A stretch of DNA of 64,000 bases from positions 38,068,001-38,132,000 of the forward strand of contig OZ024748.1 of NCBI GenBank assembly GCA_964016885.1, in the 5' to 3' direction. Both the position numbers and the translations under genes were made by a program. Numbering within the stretch: the stretch's first letter is position 1; every line of letters starts with the position of its first letter. The notes beneath the pieces were generated by a model, which was not told the DNA's origin, searched no databases, and was given only the letters and a program-made list of their open reading frames with translations. Positions 4,382 to 61,988 of the stretch are shown here, one piece after another. This stretch comes from Eledone cirrhosa (taxonomy: Eukaryota).

Positions 4382-4523
4382 ATATATATATATGTATGTA
4401 GGAGGTGAGTTTTATTGTAGTACAATAAAGCAATGCAGATATCGGATAAGAAGCACTCTACAGTTTGTGGGACTGGAGTATGCATAATATAAGATCAAAA
4501 GATGGTTAAAGGAGTTCAATATA

Positions 4524-4591
4524 TTTTATTATGCGCATTTCAAAAACAAACATCATCAAACAATAATATTTGTGTTTTCATCAGATAAAAC
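4524..4591 (-). ncRNA. Type I hammerhead ribozyme in the PLE terminal repeat
   Basis: UUUUAU-CUGAUGA-aaaca..uguuuu-GAAA-UGCGCA-UA/AUAAAA; palindromic stem III AUGCGCAU. Confidence 0.8.
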
Positions 4592-5821
4592 AGGAGAACA
4601 TGATATGAAGGCTAAAAAAACACTTGTTGATAGTGCAGTTTTAAATCAACATATGAAAAGTGGTTTTAGATTGATGTGTGATATTGGGAAAAATATTTTA
4701 TTTAGAGAGGGGGGGGAGAGAAAAGGATGAAAAGGGAAGGAGATGAGAGGGAGAGATGGGTGATAGAGAGAAAGAGATAGTTTTTATAACAGAGAGGAGA
4801 TATATTTTATATAGAGGGGTTGAAAACCGTTGGAAGATACTGTATAAATTAAAAATTTTGAAAATTAACGAAGGGAGGATATGTGCGAGGAAAAAATATA
4901 TTATATTTAGGGAGGGGTGGGGGTGGAAAGGATGAAAAAAAGGGGAGGAGATGAGAGTGAGGGTGGAAAGGGAGAGATGGGTGATAGAGAGAAAGAGATA
5001 GTTTTTATAACTGAGAAAAAGATATAATGTTTTAATATAGAGAGGTTGGGAACCGTTGGAAGATAATGTATAAATTAAAGGAATTTGAAAATTAACGAAG
5101 GGAAATTATGTATGGAGATAGAGAGAAAAAATAACGAAGGGAGATTATGTATGGAGATAGAGAGAAAAAAAATAATGATTGTGGGTGAATATTCAAAAGG
5201 AGAAATGTAGGAATCTTAAAATTAGCAAAGAGAAAATGTTTATGTATAGGATTTGAGAAAAATAATGTGAAGTTAAAGTTTTTATATTGAATTCATATGT
5301 ATTAATAATGAGTTCGTTGATGGGGAGAAAAAAATAATAATAAATTAAGGATGAAATTGAGATTAAAAAGATTTATGATAGAGAGAAAAAATAATAATGA
5401 TTGCGGATGAATACTCAAAATGTCAAAAACAAATGTTATTGTTTTACGAAGAGATATAATGAGGGTGATGAGTAAACGGGTATTATAGAGTGTATAATGC
5501 CCTTTAAAGTAAGGTAGATGGGTATATTTTAAAGAATATATGAGTATATATTAAAAAAAATATATAATAATAAATTAAGGATGAAATTGAGATTAAAAAG
5601 ATTTATGATAGAGGGAAAAAAATAATAATGATTGCGGATGAATATTCAAAATGTCAAAAACAAATGTTATTGTTTTACGAGAAGATAGGATGAGGTAAAT
5701 GAATAAACGAGTACTATAGATTGTATAATGCCCTTTAAGGTAAGGTAGATGGGTATATTTTAAAGAGGTGTATGTATATGTGCCTTTGAGAAAAGATTCT
5801 AAATTGATAAAGAATTGAATA

Positions 5822-7789
5822 TTAACTGTATACTTTGTGAAAAGTTCTATGGAATTTATGCAGGCAGATGGAAAACAAATCCGAGCGTCTATTTATTATG
5901 GATTCTAGGTTAGAGATAATGGTAAATTTTTCATTTAGGCAGAGATTACAGATTTTAGATAGAGAACTGTTCAAGTACGAGGATGCAGAAGAAATCTTTT
6001 TCCAAAAGATGTTATATTTAATGTTTTTGTCTTTTAAGGACCATATGAGTTCTGAGAGAGCAGTGTTAGTTCTTTTAAGTTTGTATTTGAAAGATGAATG
6101 ATGATTATAGAGACGAGCTTTAAAAGAGGTGGAAGTGGAGCCAAAATAGGTGAAGGAGTTGGTGCTAGTTATAATTTTACATTCATAAATTAAGTTTTTA
6201 TCGAGGCAATGGTTGTTGAGAGGACATTTATTTTTAATGCGGCAGTTGCAATTAGAGAGATTATTAATGAGTGATCTAGTGTTATCTATAGAAGGAATTG
6301 GATTGGAGAAGTTGTTTGCGATAGGAATAATAGGAATAATAGTTTCTTGATTTAGAGTTGGATTATGAACATTTAGCGAAGTTGTGTTTGACGTTGCATT
6401 TGGGTTTACAGAAGTTAGCCTAGGGTTTACAATGACGTCAGGAGTACTATTATTGTTATTATGAGATTCAATATTGGAAGGAAGAGATTTAGTATTTAAT
6501 ATTTTGTTGTTGTGTTTAGAAATGATGTTGGAAATATTGGAGGATGTAGAATACGAAAATTTAATGGTGTGTTTGTTAAATATTTTACTATAGATATGTG
6601 AGGGAGGGAAGCATTTATTTAAGGCACTAAAAAATAATTTAGGAATATTGTTATTAATAGAGATGGAGAAAGGAGCATTATACCAGATTATGTTTTTGTA
6701 TCTAGGTCTTTTATTAAAATTATTGGAATGGTTATGATTAAATATTCTACTGTAAGTTTTCCTAGAATTTGTTTCTTTATTATATTTGATTTTATCTGGA
6801 TAGCCAGCTTTAGAAAGTGCGTTATTGTAGTAATTGGCCTTAGCATCAAAGATGTTTTTATTAGAAGATATGTTAGATATTCTATTTCCAATATTATTAA
6901 CTATAGCATTCTTGATATTGGTAGGATGGTTAGATTTAAAGTTAACATAATTAAGATTCTCATTGTTTTTATGGTAAGGGTAATATAGGCCAGTGTCAAG
7001 ATTAAGAGATACATCCAAGAAATTAGCTAGTTTGGTACTATTATCAAATTCAATTTTTAGGTTATGTTGGTTAAAGAGATTACGTATATTGTTCTTAATA
7101 ATATTAAGTTTAACTATATTGCAATTTAGGATAGTAAAGAGTCCATCGTCACGATAAATTCCACCGCGAAGTTGAGGAATTTTCCGACTCAAAGAGTTCA
7201 AAATGAAGATACCAATTAAATCAGTCAATTGGGATGAATCGGATGCTCCCATTGTGATGTCGAAGTTGTTAGAGGTATCGGCTCTGGTCCAATATTCGTT
7301 GTTGAACTCTAGGATGGTTTTACGTGCGGTGAGGATGATGTGAAGTTCATCTGTGGTGATGTCAGAATATTTAAGTGCGAAAGATAGAGCATTATTGAGA
7401 AGTGAAGGCGAAATGGAGGAATAGTAGCTGGCAATATCGAATTGAATAAATTTTAGTTTGTTTTTATTATCCAATTTGTTGAACCAGCCAATCACTTCAG
7501 AAGTACCAAACCATAAATTTAGGTTTAAAGAAGAGCAATTAGAACTAACCTGTGGGATAATCCTATCCAAGATGGCTTTACTAACAACCCCCAGATCAGA
7601 TTTAGAGGGGGCGATTAATCTAACAGGTAGTTCAGTGCGAAAATTGTTTTTGTGATCCTTGAGATTTATCCTCGGAGTTCTTGGGAGGAATGGTTCGGTC
7701 TTTTTTTCAATGCCAAGTTTTGACATAATCTCATAGGCTTCAAGGTTTATGCATTCTAAATTTTCATGGTTGGTTTTACGATACATCAT
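5822..7789 (-). CDS. PLE reverse transcriptase plus C-terminal GIY-YIG endonuclease, 5'-truncated, open frame
   Basis: RT motifs FDIASYYSSI, MGASDSS, YRDDG, FLDV. Cys linker CNCRIKNKCPLNNHC. GIY-YIG LIY..YFG..FKARLYNH. C-terminal CNLC..EK..H. Confidence 0.93.
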   Translation of the reverse strand: MMYRKTNHENLECINLEAYEIMSKLGIEKKTEPFLPRTPRINLKDHKNNFRTELPVRLIAPSKSDLGVVSKAILDRIIPQVSSNCSSLNLNLWFGTSEVIGWFNKLDNKNKLKFIQFDIASYYSSISPSLLNNALSFALKYSDITTDELHIILTARKTILEFNNEYWTRADTSNNFDITMGASDSSQLTDLIGIFILNSLSRKIPQLRGGIYRDDGLFTILNCNIVKLNIIKNNIRNLFNQHNLKIEFDNSTKLANFLDVSLNLDTGLYYPYHKNNENLNYVNFKSNHPTNIKNAIVNNIGNRISNISSNKNIFDAKANYYNNALSKAGYPDKIKYNKETNSRKTYSRIFNHNHSNNFNKRPRYKNIIWYNAPFSISINNNIPKLFFSALNKCFPPSHIYSKIFNKHTIKFSYSTSSNISNIISKHNNKILNTKSLPSNIESHNNNNSTPDVIVNPRLTSVNPNATSNTTSLNVHNPTLNQETIIPIIPIANNFSNPIPSIDNTRSLINNLSNCNCRIKNKCPLNNHCLDKNLIYECKIITSTNSFTYFGSTSTSFKARLYNHHSSFKYKLKRTNTALSELIWSLKDKNIKYNIFWKKISSASSYLNSSLSKICNLCLNEKFTIISNLESIINRRSDLFSICLHKFHRTFHKVYS

Positions 7790-7791
7790 TG

Positions 7792-60527: not shown

Positions 60528-60572
60528 ACCCAAACACCCAAGTGCCAGGATTAAGACCGGTCAAACAGCAGG
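60528..60572 (+). CDS. Candidate 45-nt host-gene exon (phase 1-1 reading xPNTQVPGLRPVKQQ)
   Basis: Long polypyrimidine tract and CAG acceptor, consensus G|GTAAGT donor, length divisible by 3. Gene not recognised. Confidence 0.4.
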
Positions 60573-61052
60573 GTAAGTGATTATGTTTTCAGTTTACAAT
60601 AATTCCTGTTGTTAAGATATCTTCTAATTCTTCTTCTCTCCATCGATTGATTCCCAAATGGAAACAAGCCTGGTTTCTCGTCTTTTATTTTAGATATATA
60701 CATATATCTACATACAGACACAAGCATACATACACATATATACATGTATACACACACACGTATATATATATATATATATAGTGTAAAATGGAACGGGAAC
60801 AAGACAAGAGAGAGAGATACATGTGTATCTACATACTCACATGTATACATATACATGTGAGTGTCTGTATATAAATATATATGCATATATTCCCATGTTT
60901 TTTATATGTAAATATATATATATATATACACACACGTATATATATATATATATATATATGCATATATATTTATATACAGACACTCACATGTAAATGTATA
61001 CATGTGAGTATGTATATACATATGTATCTCTCTCTTTATATATATATATATA

Positions 61053-61437
61053 CAATGATATTAAATAAATGGAAACTATATTTATAAAACCATATTTATT
61101 TTATTATATATATTTCAAGGGTACCAAGACAACTTTGGTACGCTTTCGTCAGATAAAATACAAAGTTTGTTTTATAAATAGAGACATACCCATGAACATC
61201 ATACCTTATCGGTTGGATATACTCTGGATAGATACTGTATTTTATCTGAGGAAAGTGTACCAATGTGTCTTGGTACCCTTGAAATATATATAATAAAATA
61301 AATATGGTTTTATAAATATAGTTTCCATTTATTTAATATCATTGAATATTTACTCCAGTACCTTGTTGAATGCTCTAAATCAGTGATAAACATTTATATT
61401 TGTTGGACTTCCAACAAATTAAATACCCCTTCTACTT
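61053..61437. mobile_element. Fold-back HHR insertion (family F) with two intact ribozymes
   Basis: Arms 61053-61161 and 61237-61344, tail 61345-61437. HHRs at 61097-61160 (minus, CUGACGA) and 61238-61300 (plus, CUGAGGA), each with an 8-bp stem I. Confidence 0.88.
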
Positions 61438-61781
61438 ATATATATATATATATATATATGCATGTATTTCTATATATATGTGTGTGTCTGTGCGATGTGT
61501 ATGTGTGCATGTGTGTGTGTGTGCATGTAAGTGAGTGTTCGCGCGCGCGCACGTGTGTGTGTGTGTTTGCGTGTGTGTAAGTTGGTAATTTAAATTCTGT
61601 CGTTTCAAAGTTACTTTTAGTTTCGTTTTCAACGGCGGGAAAAATAGAATATTTGTAGTCATGACTGATACGTAGTTTTACTCGTTTACATTTAGTTTAG
61701 AATATATACACAACTATACACATACACACACGTATATATATATATATATATATATATATATATATATATATATATATATAT

Positions 61782-61988
61782 AACAAAGGAAGTGTGGCAA
61801 GGAACCAGGTGGACCATAATGCACCAGAATACTCAATACTTAGGGAAGTAGAGGGGGTAATAGGAAAATGTTCAAGACCCCGACGGCAAAGCTCAACCCA
61901 TTTCGACGTCTATTTCTGGACTCAGAGTCCAGAAATAGCCGTCGAAATGGCTTGAGCTCTGCCTTCGGGGTTTTGAACATTTTCCTAT
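61782..61988. mobile_element. Short fold-back of family B
   Basis: Palindrome 61860-61988 centred at 61924, tail 61782-61859. Confidence 0.85.

What the first reader, a model, noticed from the sequence alone, without database searches (positions are those of the whole stretch)
4392..61988. One stereotyped asymmetric fold-back architecture across six HHR families
Seen: about 12 insertions consist of a 3'-complete arm fused 5'-to-5' with an inverted arm that lacks a fixed tail. Family A stops at ACATAACTA in both copies (tail about 65 nt). Family B stops at CCTAT in four copies (about 78 nt). Family E stops near CATACTTA in three copies (about 55-65 nt). Family C lacks 40 nt, family F 93 nt and the large PLE about 92 nt. 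Inner junctions vary while outer ends are fixed, and flanks are (TA)n-type. Known: inverted pLTRs and 3' tails occur in PLEs. Inference: each target DNA end primes cDNA at a different defined RNA site (terminal versus internal), and the two cDNAs are then joined. This would be a two-ended, twin-priming-like insertion mechanism.
Basis: partly seen in the sequence, partly recalled or inferred. Interest (0 to 1): 0.8.

Follow-up and report, generated by a model that had tools for sequence, protein, structure and literature searches.

The report
Penelope insertions carry exactly one tail
These mirror-image insertions are the known two-armed footprint of Penelope-like jumping genes, and across this genome almost every one has one arm with the family's 40-100-base tail and one without, which likely means both broken DNA ends start copying the element's RNA at two different fixed points in one coordinated event.

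Summary
All 12 inserts are head-to-head Penelope-like element (PLE) arms, one tailed (T) and one ending at a fixed upstream site (N). The layout is published (PMC3846280, PMC8557442), as are two RT start sites that bound the tail (PMC11167929).

Each family has two sharp end peaks. Of 169 classifiable same-family pairs, 165 are T+N (61 of 63 in 1.1 Mb sampled away from the window); independent choice would give about half. A further 29 pairs had an end my script could not class; by eye 3-4 are same-type.

Fold-back alone cannot explain this. In 54 of 156 pairs the tail-less arm reaches at least 20 nt further 5' than the tailed arm, and 24 tailed arms are tail only. Both ends are therefore likely primed on RNA and then joined.

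One correction: T is not the RNA terminus. Tandem copies read through it, so both sites are internal. Whether one or two RNAs are used is unresolved. Reads did not confirm a junction. This scan noted the same layout and separate-priming idea earlier in other genomes. Known architecture; the near-obligate pairing is a sharp, testable addition.

The parts
4392..7784 (-). Large Hydra-type PLE, tailed (T) arm. Tail about 4392-4483; 5'-truncated RT + GIY-YIG ORF; flanked by a candidate 12-nt target duplication
   Evidence: natural end of this arm at 7784 from loose ends of other copies
7785..7791 (.). 7-nt filler at the head-to-head junction
7792..10656 (+). Large PLE, tail-less (N) arm; 3 differences from the other arm; hammerhead core CTGATGA at 10556-10562
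15679..15861 (.).
16756..17286 (.). Family C pair: T left, N right, tail 40 nt, symmetric junction; non-canonical core UUGAUGG
18680..18905 (.). Family A pair: N left, T right, tail about 65 nt
18915..21227 (.). Family B pair: T left, N right (CCTAT), tail 78-79 nt; Hydra-type ORF C-terminus remnant near 19694-19882
27896..28950 (.). Family E (tandem, retrozyme-like) pair: T left, N right; a later 100-nt repeat sits at 28068-28167
31457..34023 (.). Two-family head-to-head pair: C2 tailed arm (31457-32570, minus), a 94-nt inverted C2 piece from 273 nt further 5' (32570-32663), then a Neptune-type G tail-less arm
34700..34948 (.). Family A pair: N left, T right
36441..37120 (.). Family E pair: T left, N right
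40294..41411 (.). Hydra-type family D copy ending at T, with an inverted upstream ORF piece (40294-40550) that has no N end; non-conforming
42200..42370 (.). Probable F-subfamily pair: altered tail-bearing arm left, N arm right
49748..49908 (.). Family B pair: T left, N right
49939..52137 (.). Family E multimer pair: about 2.9 units ending at T, inverted about 1.9 units ending at N; both arms read through internal T and N sites
58501..58660 (+). Solo tailed E arm with no inverted partner; non-conforming
58946..59008 (.). Family B mini-pair: N arm of about 55 nt plus only the last ~12 nt of the tail
61045..61437 (.). Family F pair: N left, T right, tail 91-93 nt, canonical hammerhead core
61783..61988 (.). 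Family B pair: T left, N right, symmetric junction

Best explanation
These are head-to-head insertions of endonuclease-bearing Penelope-like elements with one tailed and one tail-less arm, likely made by two-ended target-primed reverse transcription. Steps: (1) The GIY-YIG endonuclease would cut both strands of (TA)n DNA, probably with a 12-14 nt stagger (inferred; weak duplication signal here; both-strand cutting was shown in vitro for another PLE). (2) One 3' end would prime at the downstream site T and the other at the upstream site N, 40-100 nt apart. Both sites are internal to a tandem or circular transcript (end positions and read-through are shown; priming is inferred). (3) The choice is coupled, one of each, with no left/right preference (shown as a genomic pattern). 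The simplest reading is one protein dimer holding one RNA unit that offers each site once (inferred). (4) The two cDNAs stop at variable points, often at family-specific spots near the ribozyme or at short palindromes. Their 3' ends are then joined by 0-10 nt overlaps, short fillers or short snap-back copies (junctions shown; order of events inferred). If one side makes almost no cDNA, the result looks like a solo arm.
For: Two sharp end peaks in each of about 12 families. 165 T+N, 3 N+N, 1 T+T among 169 unbroken same-family pairs; 61 of 63 in the sampled blocks alone. T is left in 87 and right in 86 of 173. Of 156 measured pairs the N arm reaches further 5' in 73, the T arm in 38, the junction is symmetric in 37 and 8 are censored; 24 T arms lie wholly within the tail. 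N exceeds T by 20 nt or more in 54 pairs, the reverse in 27. In a 27.3-kb element the 13.6-kb N arm is longer than the T arm could template in one pass, and none of 10 variants is shared between arms. Among 50 short 'solos', 12 carry a 9-20 nt inverted stub of the opposite end type, 1 the same type and 37 none. T-arm 5' ends pile near the N site: 16 of 41 within -10..+5 (p 0.001). Informative 12-16 nt duplications in 8 of 173 pairs, against 2.8 +/- 1.5 (max 7) in 100 shuffles. PMC11167929: a PLE protein cuts and extends both strands, starts at two internal sites bounding the tail, and is predicted to be a dimer.
Against: Priming is inferred from end positions only. 29 further pairs had an unclassed end; by eye about 16 are T+N, 2 are T+T (L019, L030), 1-2 are N+N and the rest cannot be scored, so the rule is near-obligate, not absolute. 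37 of 156 junctions are symmetric within 5 nt, which fold-back explains more simply. The one-RNA step is uncertain: arms overlap for 2.8 kb and 13 kb, which needs strand displacement or a second RNA. A partner arm was the strictly best match in only 24 of 90 pairs (27 ties, 39 worse), and one pair (L047) looks like two different templates. The pile-up at N is absent in family B (5 of 22, p 0.35) and its window was chosen after seeing the data. Only 5 of 37 testable pairs show a duplication. In vitro, PAc showed no strand difference in start site and coupling was not reported. Many solos have no partner arm.
Confidence: 0.75

Rival explanations
1. Self-priming fold-back only: one T-primed cDNA snaps back, copies itself, and is stopped and ligated at N (the self-priming idea of PMC3846280).
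For: It gives exactly one tail automatically. 37 of 156 junctions are symmetric, at hot spots with short palindromes (B about 59 nt, P about 160, F about 177, C 240-258 from N). Arms usually share subfamily markers. Short snap-back-like pieces occur at junctions.
Against: It requires the N arm to be contained in the T arm. This fails in 54 of 156 pairs by 20 nt or more, 24 T arms are tail only, and the 27-kb element cannot be made in one pass. It can still contribute to how junctions are sealed.
Confidence: 0.07
2. Two-ended priming on two separate RNA molecules, with the T/N asymmetry set by an asymmetric protein dimer rather than by one RNA (a variant of the best explanation).
For: Long overlapping arms. 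The L047 arms differ at 22 of 244 sites and share no minor allele. Ten two-family head-to-head junctions exist.
Against: T arms tend to stop at the N site in non-B families (11 of 19). Arms mostly come from the same subfamily. Two-family pairs lose the rule (6 T+N of 10, counted by eye; Fisher p 3e-4), though these may be later deletions that fused neighbouring elements.
Confidence: 0.35
3. The tail arises after copying, by endonuclease resolution or trimming of a preformed palindromic DNA intermediate on one side (the suggestion in PMC8557442).
For: It would also give one fixed tail-less end. N sites are AT-rich and could be cut. Earlier work cited in PMC11167929 found the tail was needed for endonuclease recognition.
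Against: In vitro RT start sites coincide with both genomic ends (PMC11167929). Tail-only T arms with no overlap and 9-20 nt opposite-type stubs do not fit a palindrome trimmed on one side. Junctions differ between copies.
Confidence: 0.1
4. Assembly or long-read chimera artefact.
For: The youngest arms are 99.9% identical. No listed contig bridged the one junction tested.
Against: Older pairs have arms 5-10% diverged. Artefacts would not end at two family-specific sites in 61 of 63 sampled pairs, nor give non-overlapping arms.
Confidence: 0.02

Closest known systems
Canonical EN+ PLE insertion unit with adjacent inverted 5'-truncated copy and one-sided tail (Arkhipova et al. 2013, PMC3846280; Craig et al. 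2021, PMC8557442 Fig. 2; D. virilis Penelope, PMC2377424)
   Same: [quoted passage not shown]
   Different: Published tails are 30-40 nt and called optional. Here they are 40-100 nt, and the pairing is counted as near-obligate (165 of 169) across Hydra-type, Neptune-type and CCHH-bearing families. Those papers favour self-priming or endonuclease resolution.
Poseidon PAc internal initiation (Frangieh et al. 2024, PMC11167929)
   Same: Two RT start sites bound the tail and match genomic ends; both are internal, at the ORF 5' end; both strands are cut and extended; a dimer is predicted; ribozyme cleavage is not needed.
   Different: In the parts I read, the paper does not link the two sites to the two ends of one insertion or explain inverted arms. 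Its sites are a few nt to tens of nt apart in one family.
L1 twin priming (Ostertag and Kazazian 2001, not held, recalled; used in PMC10191854 and bioRxiv 10.1101/2024.12.14.628481)
   Same: The second DNA end primes internally on RNA, giving an inverted 5' segment joined by short homology.
   Different: In L1 the second site is variable, the segments barely overlap, and it affects about 30% of inserts (PMC10191854). Here both sites are fixed, lie within 100 nt of each other and the arms often overlap. It works like twin priming; it is not L1.
Non-LTR retrozymes (Cervera and de la Pena; bioRxiv 10.64898/2026.07.22.740005)
   Same: Family E is a non-coding tandem unit of about 430-470 nt with a minimal type I hammerhead.
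   Different: Here the arrays are head-to-head and obey the T/N rule. Circular RNA was not tested.

Membership tests
EN+ Penelope-like elements | Single ORF with RT and C-terminal GIY-YIG endonuclease | tested here: met
   Pfam GIY-YIG in C2 (E 3.6e-7) and RVT_1 in C (E 3.6e-9). The large PLE and G score no Pfam hit but show RT and GIY-YIG motifs by eye and align to the C protein. No ORF was recovered for E, I or Q; for A only ORF fragments inside one insert (L089).
EN+ Penelope-like elements | Partial tandems/pLTR with the tail running into the ORF 5' end | tested here: met
   G-type tandem with N and T inside the ORF start; M-like copy L157 reads N, tail, then ATG; E arrays. Not seen for A, B, C, F or the large PLE.
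EN+ Penelope-like elements | Inverted 5'-truncated copy with one-sided tail | tested here: met
EN+ Penelope-like elements | Hammerhead motif in the pLTR | tested here: inconclusive
   Canonical cores in A, D, E, F, G, C2 and the large PLE; variant cores in B and C. Rfam's 150 best-scoring listed hits were all microRNA families and 124 weaker ones were not shown. Activity untested.
Hydra clade of PLEs (large PLE, D, H, F, B remnant) | CxCX5C linker, CxxC and CxH near the C-terminus, no CCHH, (TA)n target (PMC8557442 section 11) | tested here: met
   Large PLE: CNCRIKNKC, CNLC, CLH. H and D have similar motifs (D's first Cys is altered). An RWK-like RWR occurs in the M-like ORF start. Motif reading only.
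Hydra clade of PLEs (large PLE, D, H, F, B remnant) | Placement in the RT phylogeny with reference Hydra elements | not tested
   No reference set was in hand.
Neptune clade (family G) | CX2-5CxxC linker plus CCHH in the endonuclease | tested here: met
   CTNRKCIIC and RC..TC..H..H in the 1210-aa ORF; phylogeny not run.
L1-type twin priming | Variable second priming site and non-overlapping segments from one poly(A) RNA | tested here: not met
   The second site is fixed and the arms overlap in most pairs; no poly(A).
Non-LTR retrozymes (family E) | Circular RNA made by ribozyme cleavage | not testable with these tools
   Only contig-level or DNA runs were available for this organism.

The most novel reading that the evidence does not exclude
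Obligate twin priming is the normal integration route of endonuclease-bearing PLEs across clades. One dimer grips one RNA unit, possibly a ribozyme-made circle, and launches two reverse transcriptases from the two ends of the cut at fixed sites T and N. With strand displacement they can run round the template several times, giving the 27-kb head-to-head array of invariant 4.1-kb units. Occasionally one cDNA jumps to another family's RNA at the same break.
Probability: 0.3. Interest if true: 0.75.

Novelty: new member of a known kind. Interest (0 to 1): 0.5.

Why it matters
How PLEs, the sister group of telomerase, make their tandem and inverted insertions is described as an open question (PMC8557442, PMC11167929). 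A near-obligate one-tail rule, plus tail-less arms that outrun their partners, turns a descriptive oddity into a specific prediction for the existing in vitro PAc system: the two ends of one target should use different start sites. It also shifts weight from self-priming to two-ended priming. It gives curators a rule for PLE boundaries, and shows tails up to 100 nt. The elements themselves are ordinary members of known clades.

Tried and rejected
Rfam e-value scan: only sub-threshold microRNA hits among those listed.
Two genome searches with the large PLE's 3' end returned nothing, not even the window. Its 10 pairs come from the window, the sampled blocks and the flanks of other loci.
Three of 14 sampled blocks (C5, C7, C13) had no (TA)n and no family hits; they were dropped from then on.
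A faulty simple-repeat filter affected; it was fixed, and all counts use onward.
Two attempts to measure arm lengths were confounded by matches to other palindromes; they were replaced by anchored alignment.
A loose target-duplication test was no better than shuffled flanks (29 versus a mean of 23.8); only the stricter test was above them.
The idea that junctions sit at the ribozyme cut site was rejected for family B: N arms cluster about 59 nt from N while the predicted cut is about 18 nt away.
My early note of an 8-nt microhomology at the large-PLE junction was wrong; it is a 7-nt filler.
Two-family pairs as proof of two RNAs: not accepted, because later deletions between neighbours give the same pattern. 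Six candidates were dropped because they were separated by microsatellite or unrelated DNA, or were nested.
Contigs of public runs neither confirmed nor denied the large-PLE junction, and no empty allele was seen.
Single-strand folding recovered stem II but not whole hammerhead folds.
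Full report
Setting. The window is G000:C8:38068001-38132000 of a 3.0-Gb animal assembly, rich in (TA)n and other microsatellites. Self-comparison shows the palindromes, and reading the sequence confirms all 12 inserts and the stated stops and tail lengths. I call the downstream end T (tailed) and the upstream end N (no tail).

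What the elements are. The large element encodes a 5'-truncated RT followed by a GIY-YIG-type domain with CxCX5C, CxxC and CxH motifs and no CCHH. These are the marks given for the Hydra clade of Penelope-like elements (PMC8557442 section 11). Related ORF pieces lie upstream of families B, D, F and H. Family C carries an RT (Pfam RVT_1) and C2 a GIY-YIG domain with CCHH. Family G has the Neptune-type linker. Clade labels rest on motifs read by eye, not on a tree. E is a non-coding tandem unit with a minimal hammerhead. Canonical hammerhead cores occur in A, D, E, F, G, C2 and the large PLE; B and C have conserved variant cores.

Genome-wide test. I fetched the 30 best-scoring loci each for B (tailed query), and for B, A, C, E and F using body-only queries. 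I also fetched 14 blocks of 100 kb at round-number positions. Three blocks were satellite and dropped, leaving 1.1 Mb; the blocks are arbitrary, not formally random, and the search loci favour young copies. Clustering of sequences next to (TA)n revealed further families with paired ends. With 14 references, ends fall in two sharp peaks per family (weaker for E, G, I and C3). Among unbroken same-family head-to-head pairs with both ends classed, 165 of 169 are T+N, 3 N+N and 1 T+T; in the blocks alone 61 of 63 (p 4e-16 against 0.5). The 169 include the window's own pairs and at least one local duplicate. E pairs flagged for an internal (TA)n run add 8 T+N and 1 N+N. Counting unclassed ends too, for nine families: 148 T+N, 3 N+N, 1 T+T and 29 unclassed. 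By eye about 16 of the 29 are T+N, 2 T+T, 1-2 N+N and the rest unscorable. T lies left in 87 and right in 86.

Fold-back or two primings. A cDNA primed from each side of a break gives a head-to-head insert; so does one cDNA folding back. Fold-back requires the N arm to lie within the T arm. In 156 measured pairs, N reaches further in 73, T in 38, 37 are symmetric within 5 nt, and 8 are censored; 24 T arms are tail only. N exceeds T by at least 20 nt in 54 pairs, the reverse in 27. Twelve of 50 short solos carry a tiny inverted stub of the opposite type, 1 the same type and 37 none. A 27.3-kb element at G000:C6:30043476-30070762 has an N arm of three 4133-bp units plus 1185 nt and a T arm of three units plus 919 nt and a 277-nt slip duplicate. 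All 10 variants are private to one unit, and the N arm is too long to be a one-pass copy of the T arm. N is therefore most likely a priming site in its own right. Symmetric junctions at palindromic hot spots and short snap-back pieces suggest fold-back helps seal many junctions. Clean junctions mostly show 0-10 nt overlap or short fillers.

Terminal or internal. E arrays read through T into the next unit. In the G-type tandem, N and T lie about 20 and 82 nt into the ORF. An M-like copy reads N, tail, then ATG. Where testable, both sites are internal, as for PAc (PMC11167929).

One RNA or two. For one: the strict pairing; T-arm 5' ends near N in 16 of 41 (11 of 19 outside B, 5 of 22 in B; window chosen post hoc); shared subfamily alleles. 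For two: kilobase overlaps; the partner arm was best match in 24, tied in 27 and worse in 39 of 90; L047 looks like two templates. Ten two-family junctions split 6 T+N, 2 N+N and 2 T+T by eye. In the window's case a 94-nt C2 piece absent from the C2 arm precedes the G arm, which fits either a template switch or a later deletion. Unresolved.

Target duplication and reads. Informative 12-16 nt duplications appear in 8 of 173 pairs against 2.8 +/- 1.5 in shuffles, but in only 5 of 37 testable pairs, and some borrow element-end letters. Weak support. Public runs hold family C sequence. Contigs laid on 7000-8600 show a high-copy family and the natural arm end at 7784, but no listed piece bridges the junction. 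Artefact is unlikely on genomic grounds alone.

Literature. Seen: PMC11167929, parts 1-2 of 4 (main text and start of methods), plus a supplement text search with no hits (its figures are not held and may bear on coupling). PMC3846280, passages. PMC8557442, passages and section 11. PMC4209133, part 1 of 4. bioRxiv 2026.07.22.740005, part 1 of 5. PMC10191854, bioRxiv 2024.12.14.628481, PMC11722881 and PMC2377424, passages. Ostertag and Kazazian 2001 is recalled, not held. The inverted arm, the one-sided tail and the two start sites are all in print. I found no count of T/N pairing and no two-ended model for PLEs in searches; subscription papers by the field's main authors are not held, so this is not proof of absence. 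The scan's own notes record the same layout in other genomes, and one already suggested separate priming. None exist for this genome.

Verdict. Real, a known architecture, and new members of known PLE clades. The near-obligate one-T-one-N pairing and the evidence against pure fold-back are a useful, testable sharpening. Interest 0.5.

Noticed in passing
G000:C6:30043476-30070762 (L225-L228): 27.3-kb head-to-head array of a young Neptune-type PLE: 4133-bp units, 1210-aa ORF with a long Asn-rich stretch, about 3.3 units per arm, one N and one T end, candidate 10-nt target duplication; the invariant units fit a circular or very uniform multimeric template.
   Followed up: partly
window 31457-34023; L035, L059, L097, L160, L013, L157; G000:C9:30018112-30018354: Head-to-head junctions between different PLE families, several with a short inverted piece of the partner family at the joint; template switch or later deletion.
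   Followed up: partly
families B and C, e.g. window 21121-21128 and 17104-17110: Conserved non-canonical hammerhead cores: CUGAGAAG (47 of 51 B copies, with long stems II and III) and UUGAUGG (31 of 32 C copies; also C3). Activity unknown.
   Followed up: partly
L068:1785, L128 and similar: Possible minor third end in family B about 36 nt from T, inside the tail (3 unique copies at 35-36 nt).
   Followed up: no
window 22254-27563, minus strand: Two-ORF LINE with AP endonuclease and RT (Pfam), Tx1/L1-like by appearance, with a few stops.
   Followed up: no
window 1843-2033, 15453-15624, 28068-28167, 41863-42005, 55924-56116: Abundant short SINE-like repeat; one copy sits inside the E pair at 28068-28167.
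   Followed up: no
window 60809-61035: AT-rich palindrome next to the F pair with no recognised PLE end.
   Followed up: no
G000:C5:60.0 Mb, C7:30.0 Mb, C13:25.0 Mb (L241-L260, L301-L310): Three 100-kb blocks without any (TA)5 run or family hit; at least the C7 block is a satellite array.
   Followed up: no
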